A stretch of 64,000 bases of DNA from a virus. Shown here piece after piece: positions 1-46,499 of the stretch (within the stretch, counting starts at the first letter, position 1; each line of letters opens with the position of its first letter). Below the pieces are notes generated by a model that was not told the DNA's origin, did no database searches, and saw only the letters and a program-made list of their open reading frames with translations. The DNA lies in the IMG/VR virus record IMGVR_UViG_3300029319_000019, positions 16,340 to 80,339 of that record; one strand, given 5' to 3'. The position numbers were made by a program, and so were the translations under genes.

Positions 1-1451
1 AGAGAGTTTTTTGCATTATCTAAGAAGCCTCCATTTCTAACATCAGCTATTGTTTGAGCCATGTGCTTTCTATTAGAATATTCTTTAGACATGGCCATGC
101 CACCGCCTCTCATTAAAGCTCCTACTAAAAATCCAACAAGCATAGACTCTTGACCTTCTCGTGACCCAAATGTTTCGGAGAAGCCTTTATTTAAGGCCTT
201 AATCATATCTCCATATCCTCCATTCTTATATCTATCAGAGTGATATGTAGATGAAAAAGTACTAGATGCAAACTGAAATCCTTCCTGGAATGCTTCCGTA
301 ATACCAGCTCTACCCATGTCTGTAGCTTTACGTAATGTGCCTTTCCAAAAGCCATCATTAGCAAATTTACTTACAGCTTTTTTAGATGCTGCATCAAATA
401 TAACATCCGTGTTTACTTTAGTAGCTGTGTTAAAGCCCATCATTTGTTTACCAAACATTATAAAGTTTGTTCCCGCAAGAACGGGTAGCTGTGATATAAA
501 GTTTGTATTACCTGCAGCATAAGACGTATCTTCTATATCTTTTAATACATCTGCTGGTATTTGTGATAAATTGTCAACACCATCAGTTCTTTCAATATAA
601 GCTTTTGTAAGATCGTCAAAGGTGCTTCTTTGAGTTTCCCTAGCTTCTACAGATGCTTCTGCCATAGACATCATTAACGCTCCATCTACAGAACTCAAGA
701 ATGTTTTATATGCACCCGCAGTGCCTTTCATTCCCTTAAGATTATTAGCTAATTTTGTTCCGTTTGTAACAGCTGTCACTGCCCTATTTAAAGATTTTAA
801 TTTGTTTGCACCTGCTAATGCTCTTATTCCTTTATCAGCTATTCCTACTGCTCCAAGTCCTCCTGTCAAATACATGGTAGCAATAGATCCAAGAGAATAA
901 CCTATACCGTTTGCAAAAGTATCAGCCCAAAAGTTAGCTGTGCCTAACCTTCTAAACCCACTCATGTTCTGCTCTTCTCTTGTGAGATAGTTAGGCATGT
1001 TCTCACGCATCCAATCGTTAGTCTTATCTACAGTTCTACCTATAAAGTTATCATAATATGCACCTCCGCTAAACACTTCGCCTAACCCAAACATTACACC
1101 CAAAGTGTTTTCAGCTACAGCTCCAAGTGTAGTAACACCTGCCTTAGCTAAACCATTACCCCACTGATCAGCTGTAGATTGATTTCTAGCACGAATCTCT
1201 TCCCAGTCTAATAATTGTCCTCTAGGCACATTGTACTTAGCAAACTTATCAAGATCTCTTGTACCTAGATAGTCTGTTCTAAACAACAGCCCTTGATCGT
1301 AACCAGGATTACCTAAATTTATCTGTGGTGTAGGGGCTTGCAACGCCTTACCAGTTATAGGATTTATTGGAGTTTCCACTCCTGTAGTAGTGCTAGTAGT
1401 TGGCTGACCGCCTACTGGTAGTCCTGTTATTGGATTAATAGTTTCTGACAT
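1..1451 (-). CDS. N-terminal part (runs off window edge) of a giant crassvirus virion cargo protein, probably of the virion RNA polymerase-associated cluster
   Basis: Not in the ORF track. ATG at 1451 overlaps the TAA of the upstream gene (TAATG). Read by hand as an open frame to position 1 (MSETINPITGLPVGG...RARNQSTADQWGNGLAKAG...NFWADTFANGIGYSLGSIA...EASVEARE...EAFQEGFQ). Gly/Ala-rich hydrophobic helices and position after the muzzle and cargo genes match crassvirus giant ejected proteins. Confidence 0.75.
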   Translation of the reverse strand, partial: MSETINPITGLPVGGQPTTSTTTGVETPINPITGKALQAPTPQINLGNPGYDQGLLFRTDYLGTRDLDKFAKYNVPRGQLLDWEEIRARNQSTADQWGNGLAKAGVTTLGAVAENTLGVMFGLGEVFSGGAYYDNFIGRTVDKTNDWMRENMPNYLTREEQNMSGFRRLGTANFWADTFANGIGYSLGSIATMYLTGGLGAVGIADKGIRALAGANKLKSLNRAVTAVTNGTKLANNLKGMKGTAGAYKTFLSSVDGALMMSMAEASVEARETQRSTFDDLTKAYIERTDGVDNLSQIPADVLKDIEDTSYAAGNTNFISQLPVLAGTNFIMFGKQMMGFNTATKVNTDVIFDAASKKAVSKFANDGFWKGTLRKATDMGRAGITEAFQEGFQFASSTFSSTYHSDRYKNGGYGDMIKALNKGFSETFGSREGQESMLVGFLVGALMRGGGMAMSKEYSNRKHMAQTIADVRNGGFLDNAKNS

Positions 1452-3847: not shown

Positions 3848-6800
3848 TATTTATCTTCTTTTTTATCGTCCTCTTTGGTAGCAGTTGGCTTCGCAAAACG
3901 CTTGTTAAATAGCTCAGCTATGTCAGCATTTGTATATGGTTGACCTGTTCTAGGATTAATTTGATTTCTTAAGAAGTTTCTTAATCTATCTCTTTCATAG
4001 ATTCCCATATCACCAGTAGCTCTTGCTAGTCTCTCACTCGCTTGATAAGACATTGCATCACCTGCTAATCCTGCAATACCTTGCGCAAATGTATCAACTG
4101 CACCTAATCTTCTATTAGACTGTGCAATACGTTCAGCTTCTCTTGCTGCAGTATTAATTTGATTTACACGTAAAGCATTTTGTATATTCTGCGTTCTTGC
4201 TTGCATTTGCATTTGAGCTTCTCTATTTGCAATCTGAGTATTTATTCTAGACTCTTGTGCAGCAATCTTCATATCACCTTCTTGTTTACGTCTGTATGCA
4301 GACATCTTAGCAATGATACCAGCTGGTCCAATACCACTAGTTTCAATAAATCTATTTATCGCTCTATTGTCTGCTGCATTAGCTGCACGCTCTGCATTGA
4401 AGTTAACTCTATCTAGTGCAGGAGCTTTTATTCTACCAGGCGCACCCATTTGTTCTACCGGCTTGTCTTTCTTAAAGAAGGAATATGCTGCTGGTAATAA
4501 CTGTGTTACCCCTGCAGCTATTGCTAAACCTGGTACATTTCTATTAAGTCTTTTAAGAGCTTTCTGTTCTTGCTCTGTTAATTCAACATTACTCTTTGCT
4601 TTATCTATTAAAGCTTGATCCTCTTCTGAAAGCTGCTCATTAATTTGATTTTGTAAATTTAATGCACTCTGCACACCTTGATTTGGATCTACGTTTATTT
4701 CTACTAAGTCATCAAAAGGATTAGGTACTACATTCTCTGAAAGTGTATATTTATTAGGATCTATACCAGGATAAAATAGCTCTTGTCCCTCTTCTTGTCC
4801 CTCTTTCTCTTTCTTTTCTTCTTTTTTAACTTTTTTCTCTTCTTCTTTACTAGCTGGAGGAACAGCACCGCTAGGCCCTAATAAATTTAGTTCCTCACTC
4901 ATTTTATCTATACCGCTTATTGGGTTATATAAATTTATTCCCTGACTAAAGTCATCTATACCATCCATATTAAGATCTGACATTATAACATTTCCTAGTG
5001 GGTCTACACCCCCTAACTGATAGTAACCACCCGCACCTAACTTAACAACGTTAGGATTTCTACCTGCTTTCTTTTCTTGTAGCTTAGCTAGTGCATCAAT
5101 ATCTTTTTGACGTCCACCATTCTTTAGTATATCTTTATGTCTTTGTGCAAATGACTTACCTCCCATCTTTAAATGTTGTGAGAAGAAGTAATCTCCTACA
5201 CCACCTTTCTTCATGGTTACTTTATCCATAGTCTCTCCACCCTCTACCTCTGTCATAGGATCTAGCATTATGCCTCCTTGCTCATGACTTCTACCTTTAA
5301 ACTCTACAGCATCACTACCTGGTATAGGTTTCATTTTACCTCCTGGTAGTTTTACACCACCTCTTTGATATACTTTATTAAAATACTTATCCATACTTGT
5401 AGGATCTCCTGCAGCTCCTGTGCCGTATAGTGCTGGCATGTCACTAGCATCTTGCATAGGGTTAACTAAAGATACTGTTTTTAAAAGTGGTGCTGCTGAG
5501 GCCGCTCCAACTCTTAAAAGTTTAGAACCCATAAGTAAACCTTTTTTTGCAGCTTTTTTAAGACCCATCTTTTCTACAACATTGCTAACACCTGATACTA
5601 TATTATCAACTGCGCTAGGTTTTATTTGTTTTATAATTCTTTGACTAGGAGGCATTGGTATGTTAGGTCTAGGCATATTTTGCAATACTCCAGGAGCCCC
5701 GCCTGTTTGATAATACCCACCATATCTAGCAACATCCTTACCAAAGTCAAATCCAGAATACTCTCTAGCTTTTAAACTTTCCATTTTCTGTCTTTGTAAT
5801 ACTTTTGCAATTTCCCCTCTTTTCTTTCTTTCGGCTTTTGCCATCTCTTTCCTAGCCTTACCTCTTTTTACAAGACCTCCAATTCCTGACACCCCTGCTC
5901 CTATAATACCACCAATCAACGCAGTAACAGGTGCAGCAGGTCCGCCAATCATACCTCCTATACCTGCCCCTGTTCCTAGACCTTGAAGTAATGAACCAGT
6001 TGTTTCTCCTACATTCATTGTTGTAGCATCATCATCGTCTGCTAATTTTTTAACACCCATACCTGCTAAGGATGCAACCAGAGCTGGATTTAACATTGAT
6101 GCTGCAGTAGATGTGCCACCTGTAATAGAACCTGTTAAAAACTCTCCTGCTTTTGCAGCTCCAGTTCCAGCAGTTGCAGATCCTAAATTAGCTATAGATT
6201 GTTTTGCTCCGGCAGCTACCTTAGACAAACCAGTGCTTAGTTTACTGCCCCCAGATACACCCATTACCTCAAATCCCGCTGGTACTTCTGCTCCAGGTAG
6301 TATAGACAGTTCTGCTCCTGTTGCAGGATTTACAGCAAATTGCACACCCTTTGGTGCTGATGCTAGCCCCATTGATTCTGAAACTCCTTTACCATATAAG
6401 TCTGCACCTGTTTTAATTAGTGAAGGATCAGCAGTACTAGCTACCCCAACTGGCATAAAGTTACCAGCCTCATCTTTTATTTTTTCTCCTGTTTTAGGAT
6501 CTACTTTAAACTTTTTACTTTTATCTGCTAAATCTAAAACTTGTTCACCTATACCTTGAACAGTTTGCATTCGTGCTTCTTGCTTAGCTATTTCTTGCTG
6601 AGCTTCATCTTGATATTTAGTAGATTCTTGTGCTGCTTTTAAATCTTCTTCTATAGCTTTTAGTTTAGCAGGATCTGCTTCCTGATATGTAATGGAAGAT
6701 GTTTCCGGTACACCTGGTAATGTATTAGCGCCATACATAGGGGCTTGTTGTAATCCACCTGCTTGGTAGTAACCCATACGTCTCATGAATTCTTTATTAC

Positions 6801-31450: not shown

Positions 31451-31490
31451 AAAAAAGACCTACAGGGGAAACTAGTCCCCTGTGAGTCTT
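31451..31490 (-). terminator. Intrinsic terminator
   Basis: Minus strand ACAGGGGA-ctagtt-TCCCCTGT hairpin followed by a T-run, downstream of 31504..32007. Confidence 0.75.
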
Positions 31491-32975: not shown

Positions 32976-33014
32976 TTTTCTAAAATTTATGCGGCATTAT
33001 GCCGCTATTAATAA

Positions 33015-43573: not shown

Positions 43574-44080
43574 CTACGAACTATATTTGTTAACTACAAC
43601 ACCGCCACGTGTATTTGTATTTACTTGTTCTTGTTTAGCTACTTGCTCTTCTAGTTTTGATAATCCACTAACTACATCTCCCATCTTAGATAAATTAGCA
43701 ACCAAGTCTTTTGCATGAAAGATCGGTCTACCATTATCATCCATCATTGTTAGATCTACAGTCTCAAAATACTTTTGTAGTTTTATTACTGACAGTCTTG
43801 CTGCCTTCAATAGTTTTACTGCAGATGTTTCTTTTAATTTTTTGTATGTATCACAAGCTGCTTTTACTTTAGAACTAGGTGCCCACTTTGATTTACCATA
43901 TACACCTAACACTACCTCATCATGTCTACTCTCTTCATCATATACCGCATATGGAGATTTATGATCACACATAAAGTACACATATGCAAGTTCTTTAGAA
44001 TCTAAAGGCTTAAATTCTATAATACTTAGTGCATATGGAGAAGGCACTGCTACGTTATCAACTATCTCTAGTAACTCCAT
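43574..44080 (-). CDS. Conserved crassvirus protein upstream of TerL (candidate terminase small subunit)
   Basis: KELAYVYFMCD.KSPY...W.P...VKAA...Y...L..LEEQV..E....RGG pattern and position. Confidence 0.55.
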   Translation of the reverse strand: MELLEIVDNVAVPSPYALSIIEFKPLDSKELAYVYFMCDHKSPYAVYDEESRHDEVVLGVYGKSKWAPSSKVKAACDTYKKLKETSAVKLLKAARLSVIKLQKYFETVDLTMMDDNGRPIFHAKDLVANLSKMGDVVSGLSKLEEQVAKQEQVNTNTRGGVVVNKYSS

Positions 44081-44273
44081 TTATATTATCTCTTCTTTCT
44101 TTTTTAGAATAAAATCTACCAAAGTATGGCAGTCTTACAGAGTGAAAATTACCTTCAGACATAATTTTTGCTACATACTTAAACTGGCTGTTTATAATTT
44201 TCTCTACCTTTTCAAGAGGTAAATTATACTTTGTCGCTAGTATCTGTATTACTTCCTTTTTTGACTTTGCCAT
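44058..44273 (-). CDS. HU/IHF-like small DNA-binding protein
   Basis: KKEVIQILATKYNL....VEKII.SQF......SVRLPYFGRF matches the HU fold. Confidence 0.7.
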   Translation of the reverse strand: MAKSKKEVIQILATKYNLPLEKVEKIINSQFKYVAKIMSEGNFHSVRLPYFGRFYSKKERRDNINGVTRDS

Positions 44274-44523
44274 TGGTTTGTGATTTCCATTTGTTTATAG
44301 GACATGTAGTTGATCTCCATTTTGCTTTGTGTTGTATTAAACATCCGCATTTACCACACCTCATTCTATCTCTTATTAAATGCTCACAGCTATTACAATC
44401 AGATAATCTCTCTGCATAGTCTTCTTCAGATACATTAGGGGCACCTTCAGATATATACTTAGCAAGATCTTTACTAAAACTCTTAGTCATTTGCCATAAA
44501 CTTGGCATTTTATCCTTACTCAT
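44224..44523 (-). CDS. Zn-finger protein (DUF6171-like)
   Basis: RL..C.SC......RC.KCGC....KA......CP..KW motif. Confidence 0.7.
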   Translation of the reverse strand: MSKDKMPSLWQMTKSFSKDLAKYISEGAPNVSEEDYAERLSDCNSCEHLIRDRMRCGKCGCLIQHKAKWRSTTCPINKWKSQTNGKVKKGSNTDTSDKV

Positions 44524-45174: not shown

Positions 45175-45412
45175 CCTTAAATTGTATTGTTGCTCTATCG
45201 TTTTCTACTACTATGGTAGCAGTCTTAGATTGCCTGTTAAATTCATCTATATACTTAGATATATCTTCTCTTGTACACAAAAATGACAAGAACACAGACA
45301 GCTCTTTTGCTGCTCTGGATGTATTATGCTTTAGATCGTTAGTTTTTTGAGTGTGTTCTATCAATTCTAAGTAATCATCCAGGTTTATTGTAACTGTTCC
45401 TGGCAACTTCAT
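45146..45412 (-). CDS. Hypothetical protein
   Basis: TVTINLDDYLEL start, TAATG-coupled to groES. Confidence 0.6.
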   Translation of the reverse strand: MKLPGTVTINLDDYLELIEHTQKTNDLKHNTSRAAKELSVFLSFLCTREDISKYIDEFNRQSKTATIVVENDRATIQFKDDQNKVSDS

Positions 45413-45687
45413 TAGAACTTACCTAATACTTGAAACTCATTAACAAACAAATACTGAACTTCGTCAATATGAATAAGCATTGCCTCTGTGTTTGGATCTA
45501 CCATGATCTTATCACCCGGCTCACACTGCGTAACTTGCGGTCCTACCGCCAATACTTCTACAATATTTGTCTGTAATTGTCTTGCAGTCTCGTCATCAAG
45601 AATGATACCTGCATCTGTCTTCTTTTTGTCCGGTCTTGGTACTACTATCCATGCACCAAACGGTTGAAATGTAAATTCCTTTGCCAT
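45412..45687 (-). CDS. groES: Co-chaperonin GroES (Cpn10)-like
   Basis: QPFG..IVV....KKTDAGIIL (mobile loop), EVLAVGP, PGDKI and Y..V.E..VLG motifs. Confidence 0.85.
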   Translation of the reverse strand: MAKEFTFQPFGAWIVVPRPDKKKTDAGIILDDETARQLQTNIVEVLAVGPQVTQCEPGDKIMVDPNTEAMLIHIDEVQYLFVNEFQVLGKF

Positions 45688-45712
45688 TGCTATCTATAAT
45701 TAGTTATAAATG

Positions 45713-45744
45713 CAAAGGTATAATAAAATATTTTACAAATACAA
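45713..45744 (-). promoter_or_regulatory. Bacteroidota promoter of the late operon (TTG-N21-TACCTTTG)
   Basis: -7 box at 45713-45720 and TTG at 45742-45744, upstream of groES. Confidence 0.7.
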
Positions 45745-45749
45745 GTGTT

Positions 45750-46035
45750 TTTTGAAGAACTTCACTATTGGGTACACCACACCCCTAGGAGATTTGCTAT
45801 TTCAGTTGGAATTTTACCTCTGGCAGTGCTGTCTTTTGGACTACCTAAGGACACTAAAACTGATGTTAATTCATCACACCTACCTCTGTGTAATGTGCCC
45901 TAACCGTTGGCTATATCCGCCTTTTCAGAGACTATTGGAGAAAACTCTAATCCTTATTTAGGATCTACAATCCAACGTCTGACCCCATAACTACCTTTCG
46001 GCCCTCTGGGGTGATACGTATATTACGTGTCTCTG
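45750..46035 (-). ncRNA. Candidate ~290-nt structured non-coding RNA
   Basis: Own TAnnTTTG promoter at 46040-46047, no minus-strand ORF, raised GC. At least six stems with G-U pairs favouring the minus strand and a GAAA tetraloop. Confidence 0.5.
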
Positions 46036-46039
46036 CGGA

Positions 46040-46047
46040 CAAAAATA
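46040..46047 (-). promoter_or_regulatory. Bacteroidota -7 box (TATTTTTG) upstream of the candidate ncRNA
   Basis: Exact TAnnTTTG just outside the structured region. Confidence 0.55.
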
Positions 46048-46244
46048 CTAAAAAAAATTTAACCACCAAAATTTTTGAGCGTGTGTACCTACTATTGCAA
46101 AGACCCTACCTATGTTTCGGAGTTAGAGATACCCCGTGCATAAATATATATAAATTATATGTATGTTCTATTGCATAGACATTCGCTAGCTCTCGCGTAG
46201 TGTGTCGCGGTGATACACTCGTATAATCTAACAACAATTGTGAT

Positions 46245-46493
46245 ATGAATAAGCTAAGCACTTATCTTAAAGAAAACGGCTATATGCAAGCCAAAGTAGT
46301 AAATGGCCCTAATGGTGACTTCGTTGTTGCAGCTAAAGAGGATAACTCTATTGCAACATTCCCAGTAGGCAAGAACTCTCAAGGAGAAACAGACATCTTC
46401 GCATTCAACTATGTAGTAGGTACGCGTGACGGTATTAGTCAAGTAATTGCTACTGTTAATCAGTATAGTGAAACAGAGTTCCAAGTATTGTAA
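46245..46493 (+). CDS. First early gene, hypothetical 82-aa protein
   Basis: Own upstream motif and downstream terminator. High-expression codon usage. Confidence 0.75.
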   Translation: MNKLSTYLKENGYMQAKVVNGPNGDFVVAAKEDNSIATFPVGKNSQGETDIFAFNYVVGTRDGISQVIATVNQYSETEFQVL

Positions 46494-46499
46494 TTAGTT

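What the first reader, a model, noticed from the sequence alone, without database searches (positions are those of the whole stretch)
45750..46047. Candidate novel ~290-nt structured ncRNA with its own promoter at the strand switch
Seen on the minus strand, 5' to 3', after TATTTTTG (46040-46047): an ACGUA/UACGU hairpin; an ACCCCA/UGGGGU stem (46007-12 with 45982-87) enclosing GCC-GAAA-GGU; a CGUUGG/CCAACG stem (45972-77 with 45905-10) closing a junction of three hairpins (AUCCU/AGGAU, GAG/CUC, GUCU/AGGC); an AGGGCAC/GUGUCCU domain with AUUACAC/GUGUGAU or UGAUG/CAUCA; GGUAGU/ACUGCC; GAGGU/AUCUC, whose loop AACUGA can form a pseudoknot with upstream UCAGUU; and GGGUG/UACCC. Repeated G-U pairs work only on the minus strand. 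The element ends just before the separate groES promoter. It matches no RNA class I recognise. Inference: a discrete phage RNA (packaging, replication primer, ribozyme or anti-defence decoy) or a long regulatory leader of the late operon.
Basis: partly seen in the sequence, partly recalled or inferred. Interest (0 to 1): 0.75.

Follow-up and report, generated by a model that had tools for sequence, protein, structure and literature searches.

The report
Folded RNA heading crAss-phage late operon
The flagged stretch is a real gene-sized module for a roughly 265-base, intricately folded RNA of an uncatalogued family that uncultured marine crAss-like phages keep, behind a host-type promoter, as the first thing transcribed in their 46-kb virion-gene block; what it does is not yet known.

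Summary
Real and new. Window 46034-45770 (minus strand) encodes a ~265-nt two-domain RNA. It starts about 5 nt after a Bacteroidota-type promoter (TTTG-N19-TATTTTTG). It matches none of 4227 Rfam families. Two motif scans, each stopped at 120 viral contigs, gave about 125 distinct copies, one per locus. No copy was found in 185,579 prokaryote genomes. On 70 sequences, 96.4% of cells pair, 31 of 58 pairs change on both sides, and no shuffle reached the covariation score. G-U pairs make the fold strand-specific.

CGUUGG/CCAACG, GUCU/AGGC, GGUAGU/ACUGCC and the pseudoknot do not. The family instead has P1 (AGAGAC/GUCUCU), P4 (GUUGGA/UCCAAU) and a long-range helix closing the 3' domain.

The RNA always heads the order groES, small genes, terminase, portal, capsid. 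groES keeps its own promoter. No conserved terminator follows the RNA, and unrelated promoter-less ORFs are inserted right behind it, so transcription reads through.

Best guess (about 0.4): a cis-acting leader that controls elongation or antitermination, laid out like conAn2 or put. The main rival is a released trans-acting RNA.

The scan had flagged look-alike RNAs on other phage DNA (e1-5898636, e1-5898644; perhaps e1-5964066).

The parts
46040..46070 (-). Promoter of the RNA: -33 TTTG (46070-46067), 19-nt spacer, -7 box TATTTTTG (46047-46040). This is the Bacteroidota sigma-A type, TTTG-N19-21-TAnnTTTG.
   Evidence: The TTTG of the -7 box is kept in at least 97% of about 100 relatives. The first helix starts about 5 nt after the box in both main architectures.
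45770..46034 (-). The structured RNA itself, about 265 nt here (250-334 nt across the family), with a 5' domain and a 3' domain.
   Evidence: The covariance model R1 was built only from the other architecture, yet it hits 46030-45764 at 137.5 bits, E 4.6e-39, as a single copy. Covariation is shown.
45927..46034 (-). 5' domain. P1 AGAGAC (46034-46029) pairs with GUCUCU (45932-45927) and closes a junction. Inside it are the P2 hairpin (46028-46016), P3 ACCCCA/UGGGGU (46012-45982) capped by GCC-GAAA-GGU, P4 GUUGGA/UCCAAU (45976-45971 with 45939-45934), and the P5 hairpin AUCCU-AAAUA-AGGAU (45964-45950). P5 is flanked by the conserved strands UUGUAG and UAGAGUUUUC.
   Evidence: P1 covaries as AGAGA/UCUCU, AGAAG/CUUCU, GCAAC/GUUGC, GUAAU/AUUAC and GUGAU/AUCAC. 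P4 has UA:32 against CG:36. All four variable pairs of P5 change on both sides.
45804..45922 (-). 3' domain. It is closed by a long-range helix, AGGCGGA (45922-45916) with UCCAACU (45810-45804). Inside it are P7 AGGGCAC/GUGUCCU (45901-45895 with 45854-45848), P8 ACAC/GUGU, the P9 hairpin GAUG-AAUUAA-CAUC (45875-45862) and the P10 arm (45845-45825).
   Evidence: The long-range helix covaries GC:15/AU:11 in the window's architecture. In the other architecture it covaries GC:17/AU:17 and UA:16/CG:17. P7, P8, P9 and P10 are supported.
45770..45803 (-). 3' tail with a conserved G run (AAGGGGG in most relatives, UAGGGGU here) and a terminal hairpin, GGGUG/UACCC. No U tract follows it here.
   Evidence: The hairpin covaries weakly (helix 11). 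Only 7 of 77 distinct tails were scored U-rich.
45713..45720 (-). Separate -7 box of the groES promoter (TACCTTTG), 25 nt before the groES ATG.
   Evidence: A TAnnTTTG box lies 17-26 nt before the groES start in 78 of 79 usable loci.
45412..45687 (-). GroES-like co-chaperonin gene, the first protein gene of the late block.
   Evidence: Pfam Cpn10, 28.4 bits against a cut-off of 21.1. PHROG co-chaperonin GroES, E 4.7e-11.

Best explanation
SHOWN. The stretch is a module for a ~265-nt RNA with two multi-helix domains. It belongs to a large uncatalogued family found only in uncultured marine crAss-like (Crassvirales) phages of Bacteroidota. It sits directly behind a host-type promoter, and the predicted start point coincides with the first helix. 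It is always the first element of the co-directional block groES, small genes (including DUF6171 and an HU-like protein), large terminase, portal, capsid and tail. Transcription is not reliably stopped behind it.

INFERRED (most likely, about 0.4). The RNA works in cis, on the polymerase or transcript that makes it, as a leader at the head of the late transcription unit. It folds as it is made and renders the host RNA polymerase that started at its promoter resistant to pausing and termination. That polymerase can then traverse the long, promoter-poor, terminator-containing virion block. Polymerases that start at the downstream groES promoter are not modified. This would work like the large conAn2 RNA of conjugative plasmids, or like HK022 put and Bacillus EAR. 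No step of this mechanism has been observed.
For: The structure is real:
- MAFFT-only alignments give 20 of 67 and 23 of 58 pairs with changes on both sides.
- On 70 sequences, 96.4% of cells pair and 31 of 58 pairs change on both sides (537 cells). The covariation score is 0.395 against 0.192 in shuffles (0 of 500 reach it), and at most 0.094 when partners are slid.
- G-U pairs are 12.1% of paired cells, so the complementary strand pairs only 85.1%.

Promoter and start.

Distribution:
- At least 120 viral contigs were found with each of two independent motifs, both scans capped.
- 99 of 99 loci searched with the model have exactly one hit.
- There are no hits in 185,579 prokaryote genomes.

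Position:
- groES lies downstream in 90 of 97 loci and in all 33 further loci. The same gene order runs down to terminase, whose identity falls to 62-70%.

Read-through:
- There is no uniform terminator.
- About 25 loci carry unrelated ORFs that start 10-40 nt after the RNA with no TAnnTTTG box of their own.
- One lineage has 5.4 kb of co-directional genes inserted behind the RNA.
- In L024 a 61-aa ORF lies between the promoter and the RNA, and its stop codon overlaps P1.
- Short contigs in two RNA-type libraries bridge the RNA's 3' end into the spacer or groES. This is weak evidence.

Need for processivity:
- The 46-kb minus-strand block has only three or four gene-proximal TAnnTTTG boxes.
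- It has more terminator-like hairpins than shuffles do, 18 against 8.1.

Precedents:
- conAn2 is a cis-acting antitermination RNA within 315 bp, at the head of a long operon. It is followed at once by an internal promoter, P29 (PMC8191782).
- Late genes of crAss-like phages are transcribed by host RNA polymerase (10.1101/2020.03.07.982082; PMC8375218).
Against: - No antitermination, polymerase binding or transcript end has been observed. The mechanism rests on layout alone.
- A complete, conserved promoter for groES lies 50-80 nt behind the RNA, so the operon does not strictly need the RNA's promoter.
- The RNA is far larger and more intricate than put (about 70 nt) or EAR (about 120 nt). It has many conserved unpaired nucleotides, which is more typical of ribozymes, riboswitches or RNA-protein particles.
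- All carriers belong to one phage clade with conserved gene order, so the constant position could be simple inheritance.
- The thermodynamic fold of the window's own sequence prefers partly different helices: -77.4 kcal/mol, against -66.1 when P1, P4 and the long-range helix are enforced.
Confidence: 0.4

Rival explanations
1. A trans-acting stable RNA. The ~265-nt RNA is the functional product. [quoted passage not shown] It would act away from its own transcript as the scaffold of an RNA-protein particle, a decoy or sponge for a host or phage factor, or a ribozyme.
For: - It has its own strong promoter, with the 5' end buried in P1.
- The next gene has an independent promoter.
- It behaves as a separable module, with insertion points on both sides.
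- It has an elaborate two-domain fold with many conserved junction and loop nucleotides. This resembles known large functional RNAs more than simple leaders.
- crAss-like phage phi14:2 makes abundant long non-coding RNAs of unknown role.
Against: - There is no conserved terminator or recognisable processing signal at the 3' end.
- Downstream ORFs depend on read-through.
- No partner protein was identified among the neighbours.
- No convincing complementarity to other parts of the genome was found.
- No discrete transcript has been observed.
Confidence: 0.33
2. A riboswitch-like sensor. The fold would bind a small molecule, a tRNA or a protein, and would set how much transcription from the first promoter continues into the virion genes.
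For: - Junction nucleotides are conserved while peripheral helices come and go. P2 is present or absent, P3 is long or short, and the P5 arm is expanded in one subgroup. This is the usual pattern of aptamer families.
- It has a promoter-proximal position in a read-through transcript.
Against: - No conserved terminator/antiterminator pair or other expression platform was found.
- The 3' tail is conserved in sequence rather than in pairing.
- It is larger than nearly all known aptamers.
- No Rfam riboswitch matches, even at E <= 10.
- The next gene has its own promoter.
Confidence: 0.12
3. An origin-priming transcript. A promoter-driven RNA at the divergent switch would form a persistent RNA-DNA hybrid through its 3' G run, next to AT-rich DNA, and would prime replication, as ColE1 RNA II or the phage T4 origins do.
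For: - It lies at the boundary between the replication and virion gene blocks.
- It has a conserved G run near the 3' end followed by AT-rich sequence.
Against: - The AT-rich DNA behind it is simply the next promoter.
- Insertions of 0.2-5.4 kb directly behind the G run are tolerated.
- A primer does not need about 58 conserved base pairs in two domains.
- No repeats or iterons were seen.
Confidence: 0.05
4. Not an RNA at all. It would be a DNA-level site (packaging site or operator array) or a small protein-coding gene.
For: - It lies near the terminase genes.
- Short ORFs overlap it on the plus strand (45710-45961).
Against: - Compensatory changes keep the pairing, and frequent G-U pairs work on one strand only: 96.4% against 85.1% paired.
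- No ORF is conserved across the family. The only overlapping ORF cluster is antisense and occurs in 12 of 97 loci.
- Insertions and deletions of 1-2 nt fall in loops.
Confidence: 0.02

Closest known systems
[quoted passage not shown]
   Same: Both are large non-coding elements of about 300 nt at the head of a very long operon of a mobile element. Both are followed at once by an internal promoter (P29 there, the groES promoter here). conAn2 works only in cis. In one lineage here a small ORF precedes the RNA in the same transcript, as conAn1 precedes conAn2.
   Different: No sequence or structural likeness is known. conAn2 has little documented conserved structure, and it needs the ConAn1 protein for processivity. 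The hosts differ (Firmicutes plasmids against Bacteroidota phages). Antitermination has not been tested here.
HK022 put RNAs (PMC9378689) and the Bacillus EAR element
   Same: These are phage or operon leader RNAs that fold as they are made and render the transcribing polymerase termination-resistant without a protein. They are promoter-proximal.
   Different: put is about 70 nt and EAR about 120 nt, against about 265 nt and two domains here. No Rfam match was found, including to any antitermination RNA family held there. The polymerase lineage is different.
ROOL (RF03087) and GOLLD (RF01998), large orphan structured RNAs of phages and prophages
   Same: They are phage-borne, promoter-driven, intricately folded RNAs with strong covariation and no known function.
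   Different: They are two to three times longer. There is no covariance-model match. They are found in Firmicutes and other prophages and in bacterial genomes, whereas this family is absent from 185,579 prokaryote genomes.
phi29 packaging RNA (pRNA)
   Same: It is a phage-encoded structured RNA whose gene lies near the morphogenesis genes.
   Different: There is no match to any Rfam model. crAss-like phages carry a conventional large terminase and portal. The read-through layout is unlike the discrete, terminated pRNA gene.
Long non-coding RNAs of crAss-like Cellulophaga phage phi14:2 (10.1101/2020.03.07.982082)
   Same: They are abundant non-coding transcripts of a marine crAss-like phage of Flavobacteriia, with function unknown.
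   Different: They are not homologous. Model R1 finds nothing in phi14:2. They lie in the early region. One of those intergenic regions scores as a tmRNA-like gene, at 46 bits against a gathering score of 47.

Membership tests
Any Rfam 15 family (4227 models, including riboswitches, ribozymes, 6S, tmRNA, RNase P, SRP, ROOL, GOLLD, pRNA, Y RNA) | Covariance-model score at or above the family's gathering score | tested here: not met
   There are no matches in the whole window at gathering score. With permissive filters on 45600-46350, the only hits were RAGATH-25 at 16 bits (needs 49) on a flanking hairpin, and RefA1 at 13.7 bits (needs 94).
tRNA / tmRNA | tRNA-like domain recognised by ARAGORN | tested here: not met
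   ARAGORN finds no tRNA or tmRNA in the 64-kb window.
Cis-acting processive antitermination RNAs (put, EAR, conAn2) | Located in the transcript at the head of a long multi-terminator operon | tested here: met
   The RNA is the first element of the 46-kb block in all loci. ORFs behind it depend on read-through. The block holds terminator-like hairpins and few promoters.
Cis-acting processive antitermination RNAs (put, EAR, conAn2) | Raises read-through of downstream terminators, and only in cis | not testable with these tools
   This needs reporter or in vitro transcription assays.
Cis-acting processive antitermination RNAs (put, EAR, conAn2) | Sequence or structure likeness to a known member | tested here: not met
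   No Rfam match. The size and architecture differ.
Riboswitch | Aptamer coupled to an expression platform (mutually exclusive terminator/antiterminator, or sequestered start site) | tested here: not met
   The 3' ends are variable, with no conserved terminator. The next gene has its own promoter.
Stand-alone small-RNA gene (promoter plus intrinsic terminator) | Own promoter | tested here: met
   TTTG-N19-TAnnTTTG is conserved.
Stand-alone small-RNA gene (promoter plus intrinsic terminator) | Intrinsic terminator at the 3' end | tested here: not met
   No terminator-like site was called at 45770-45750. A U-rich tail follows the hairpin in only 7 of 77 relatives.
The new family itself (model R1) | Full-length match to the covariance model built from relatives of the other architecture | tested here: met
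   The window scores 137.5 bits, E 4.6e-39, over model positions 1-257 of 257.

The most novel reading that the evidence does not exclude
This is a new class of large, self-sufficient regulatory RNA. It would reprogramme the host's RNA polymerase, or sense the state of the infected cell, at the first late promoter, and so gate virion production in a widespread group of marine crAss-like phages. Other crAss-like lineages also keep a promoter-driven non-coding stretch at the same place. In crAss001 a 318-nt gap with a TAnnTTTG box heads the late block. Together these may form an order-wide, so far unrecognised layer of late-gene control.
Probability: 0.3. Interest if true: 0.85.

Novelty: categorically new. 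Interest (0 to 1): 0.72.

Why it matters
crAss-like phages are among the most abundant viruses of Bacteroidota in the gut and the sea, yet how they switch host RNA polymerase onto their virion genes is unknown. This work defines a large RNA family with a well-supported fold. It occurs once per genome, exactly at the first late promoter. The family matches nothing catalogued and is absent from bacterial genomes. It is a concrete handle on late-gene control in these phages. It is also a new candidate for structural and biochemical study alongside the few other orphan large RNAs. If it proves to be an RNA-only antiterminator or a sensor, it would extend those mechanisms to Bacteroidota, whose transcription and translation signals differ from those of the model bacteria.

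Tried and rejected
- **Rfam.** The gathering-score and permissive searches gave nothing usable.
- **Isolated phages.** blastn of the 1.1-kb region and tblastn of GroES against 50,697 phage records found no match. No cultured relative carries the RNA.
- **Model R1 against phi14:2 and crAss001.** No hit at E <= 10. Homology with RNAs of other crAss-like lineages is therefore not shown.
- **Public RNA runs.** Only three RNA-type runs held small shares. Laid on 45200-46500, each gave one short low-depth contig: 45636-45789, 45699-45873 and 45748-45929. These are contigs, so DNA carry-over cannot be excluded, and strand, ends and level cannot be read. Parts without cover say nothing.
Both conflict with the covarying long-range helix.
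- **Pairing of the 3' G run with the C-rich strand of P3.** No covariation was seen (by eye).
- **Complementarity of conserved loops to other parts of the window.** Only chance-level 8-10-mers were found.
- **Neighbouring small proteins as an RNA partner or antiterminator.** Pfam and PHROGs show only GroES, DUF6171 and an HU-like protein.
- **Literature.** Searches on crAss-like phages with structured or non-coding RNA found no description of this RNA.
- **** was an empty placeholder script.

Full report
**Setting**

The window is bases 16340-80339 of an 80,339-bp IMG/VR virus record estimated at 93% complete. Bases 46000 down to 1 on the minus strand form one co-directional block. It contains:
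- a GroES-like gene (45687-45412; Pfam Cpn10, PHROG co-chaperonin GroES)
- six small genes, including a DUF6171 protein and an HU-like protein
- the large terminase (43340-41349)
- the portal
- the major head protein
- tail genes

The plus strand from 46245 onwards carries DNA polymerase, helicase and rIIA/B-like genes. The terminase is about 40% identical to those of crAss-like phages. The phage is therefore an uncultured marine member of Crassvirales. The finding lies in the 557-nt gap at the strand switch.

**Check of the observation**

The minus strand of 46047-45750 folds at -84.8 kcal/mol, z = -2.96, with 1 of 200 dinucleotide shuffles as good. The plus strand gives z = -1.97. The trimmed RNA 46034-45770 gives z = -2.78. 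Rfam gives nothing. ARAGORN finds no tRNA or tmRNA. TATTTTTG (46047-46040) with TTTG 19 nt upstream fits the Bacteroidota promoter form TTTG-N19-21-TAnnTTTG (established knowledge). It is one of only five such bipartite matches in the 64-kb window.

**Relatives**

- The GroES protein retrieved 45 viral contigs at 72-100% identity.
- blastn of the intergenic region showed a conserved core, window 46034-45797. In more distant relatives, unrelated insertions of about 270 and 350 nt flank this core.
- The motif GGATTGTAG-N11-22-TAGAGTTTTCTCC hit at least 120 viral contigs before the scan stopped at its limit. It hit none of 185,579 prokaryote genomes.
- A second, independent motif from the 3' domain gave the same result. 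It added variants that lack the first motif.
- About 125 distinct sequences are in hand.
- The invariance of the 22 motif bases in alignment A2 is partly an effect of the search. The second scan shows natural variants there, such as UUGGUAG and GAGAUUUUCUCC, and an expanded arm.

**Structure**

MAFFT-only alignments show clear compensation. In A1 (29 sequences), 20 of 67 predicted pairs change on both sides. In A3 (36 sequences of the other architecture), 23 of 58 do. A blind scan of all column pairs ranks the same helices on top.

A covariance model built only from A3 (R1) finds the window's RNA at 137.5 bits, E 4.6e-39, as a single copy. It finds exactly one copy in each of the 99 sources searched, which are 98 loci plus the window.

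On the 70-sequence alignment A4:
- 96.4% of cells pair.
- 31 of 58 pairs change on both sides, in 537 cells.
- The covariation score is 0.395 against 0.192 in shuffles, and 0 of 500 shuffles reach it.
- The score is at most 0.094 when partners are slid by 1-3 columns.

A4 was fitted to the model, which favours the structure. The MAFFT alignments agree with it. G-U pairs make up 12.1% of paired cells, so the opposite strand would pair only 85.1%.

**The fold** (window coordinates)

*5' domain.* P1 (AGAGAC 46034-46029 with GUCUCU 45932-45927) closes a junction that carries three arms:
- P2, a hairpin that is absent in the majority architecture
- the P4-P5 arm, with the conserved strands UUGUAG and UAGAGUUUUC

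*3' domain.* An A-rich linker leads to a domain closed by a long-range helix, AGGCGGA 45922-45916 with UCCAACU 45810-45804. This helix covaries GC:15/AU:11 here, and GC:17/AU:17 plus UA:16/CG:17 in the other architecture. The domain holds P7 (with P8 and P9 inside it) and P10.

*Tail.* A tail with a conserved G run and a variable terminal hairpin ends the RNA.

Family lengths are 250-278 nt, median 260, and up to 334 nt in the subgroup with an expanded arm.

It reaches -77.4 kcal/mol, against -66.1 when P1, P4 and the long-range helix are enforced. Either tertiary contacts decide the fold or this lineage has alternative pairings. This is unresolved.

**Transcription unit**

In both main architectures the first helix begins about 5 nt after the -7 box, where Bacteroidota transcripts are expected to start (inference from established promoter geometry).

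groES has its own TAnnTTTG box 17-26 nt before its ATG in 78 of 79 loci, usually with a -33 element. The RNA is therefore not needed as the groES leader.

Several facts indicate that the RNA's transcript does not stop behind it:
- The 3' ends are variable, and only 7 of 77 have a U-rich tail.
- In about 25 loci, unrelated ORFs from at least seven different clusters begin 10-40 nt after the RNA with no promoter box between.
- One lineage has 5.4 kb of co-directional genes inserted there.
- In L024 the promoter is followed by a 61-aa Cys-rich ORF whose stop codon overlaps P1, so there the RNA lies inside a polycistronic transcript.
- Three RNA-type public runs from three studies each gave one short, low-depth contig within 45636-45929. 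Two of them cross the RNA's 3' end. This is compatible with read-through but is weak, because DNA carry-over cannot be excluded.

**What it most likely does**

The RNA is always the first element of the late block, in 90 of 97 loci plus 33 of 33 further loci. However, all carriers are one clade, so conserved gene order alone could explain the position.

The block is long and has only three or four gene-proximal host-type promoter boxes. It has more terminator-like hairpins than shuffled sequence, 18 against 8.1. Late genes of crAss-like phages are read by host RNA polymerase.

A documented precedent has the same layout. The conAn2 RNA, contained within 315 bp at the head of a long conjugation operon, acts only in cis and is followed at once by an internal promoter (PMC8191782). 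Smaller RNA-only examples are HK022 put (PMC9378689) and EAR.

I therefore rank a cis-acting elongation or antitermination leader first, at about 0.4. A released trans-acting RNA follows at about 0.33, a riboswitch-like sensor at about 0.12, an origin primer at about 0.05, and a DNA-level or coding element at about 0.02. That the RNA and its fold exist I hold at above 0.9.

**Comparison and novelty**

There is no membership in any Rfam family. No cultured phage has a homologue. No description was found in the literature searched.

Earlier notes of this scan describe look-alike elements on other phage DNA. e1-5898636 and e1-5898644 share words with this RNA. e1-5964066 describes a ~250-nt RNA heading the packaging operon. 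Other notes describe non-homologous RNAs at the same position in gut crAss-like phages.

I checked only one point of this. In crAss001, a 318-nt non-coding gap with a TAnnTTTG box heads the late block, upstream of the HU, GroES-like and terminase genes. Its single-sequence fold is unremarkable, z = -0.27.

Noticed in passing
L170 (Cellulophaga phage phi14:2, NC_021806) 4031-4502, plus strand: The highly transcribed g004-g006 non-coding region of phi14:2 was reported as a long non-coding RNA of unknown function. It scores as a tmRNA at 46 bits, against a gathering score of 47, with E 2.6e-16.
   Followed up: partly
L204 (Bacteroides phage crAss001, NC_049977) 650-998, plus strand: A 318-nt non-coding gap with a TATGTTTG box at its 5' end heads the crAss001 late block. 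It lies upstream of the tRNA array and the HU, GroES-like and terminase genes, the same position as the RNA studied here. Model R1 does not match it, and its single-sequence fold gives z = -0.27.
   Followed up: partly
Locus L024 2155-2352 and 2647-2955; similar sites in about 25 other loci: Both edges of the RNA are insertion points for small accessory genes. These include a 61-aa Cys-rich ORF between the promoter and the RNA, a 102-aa ORF behind the RNA, and other unrelated ORFs elsewhere. None has a promoter box of its own.
   Followed up: partly
L174 1483-6924: Nine co-directional genes (5.4 kb) are inserted between the RNA and the groES promoter in one lineage. A TAGTTTTG box lies just behind the RNA.
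   Followed up: no
window 45746-45772, minus strand: A near-palindrome, GUGAAGUUCUUCA(C), lies between the RNA and the -33 region of the groES promoter. It is kept in the window's close relatives only. It gives a sub-threshold RAGATH-25 hit (16 bits against 49). It could be an operator or a small hairpin.
   Followed up: no
window 44058-44523, minus strand: The conserved small-gene block between groES and terminase includes a DUF6171 protein (34.7 bits) and an HU/IHF-like DNA-binding protein (26 bits). crAss001 also has HU and GroES-like genes just upstream of its terminase.
   Followed up: partly
window 31462-31484 and 32991-33005, minus strand: Strong terminator-like hairpins lie inside the late block, for example ACAGGGGA...UCCCCUGU followed by U-rich sequence. 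They may mark sub-operon ends or targets of antitermination.
   Followed up: no
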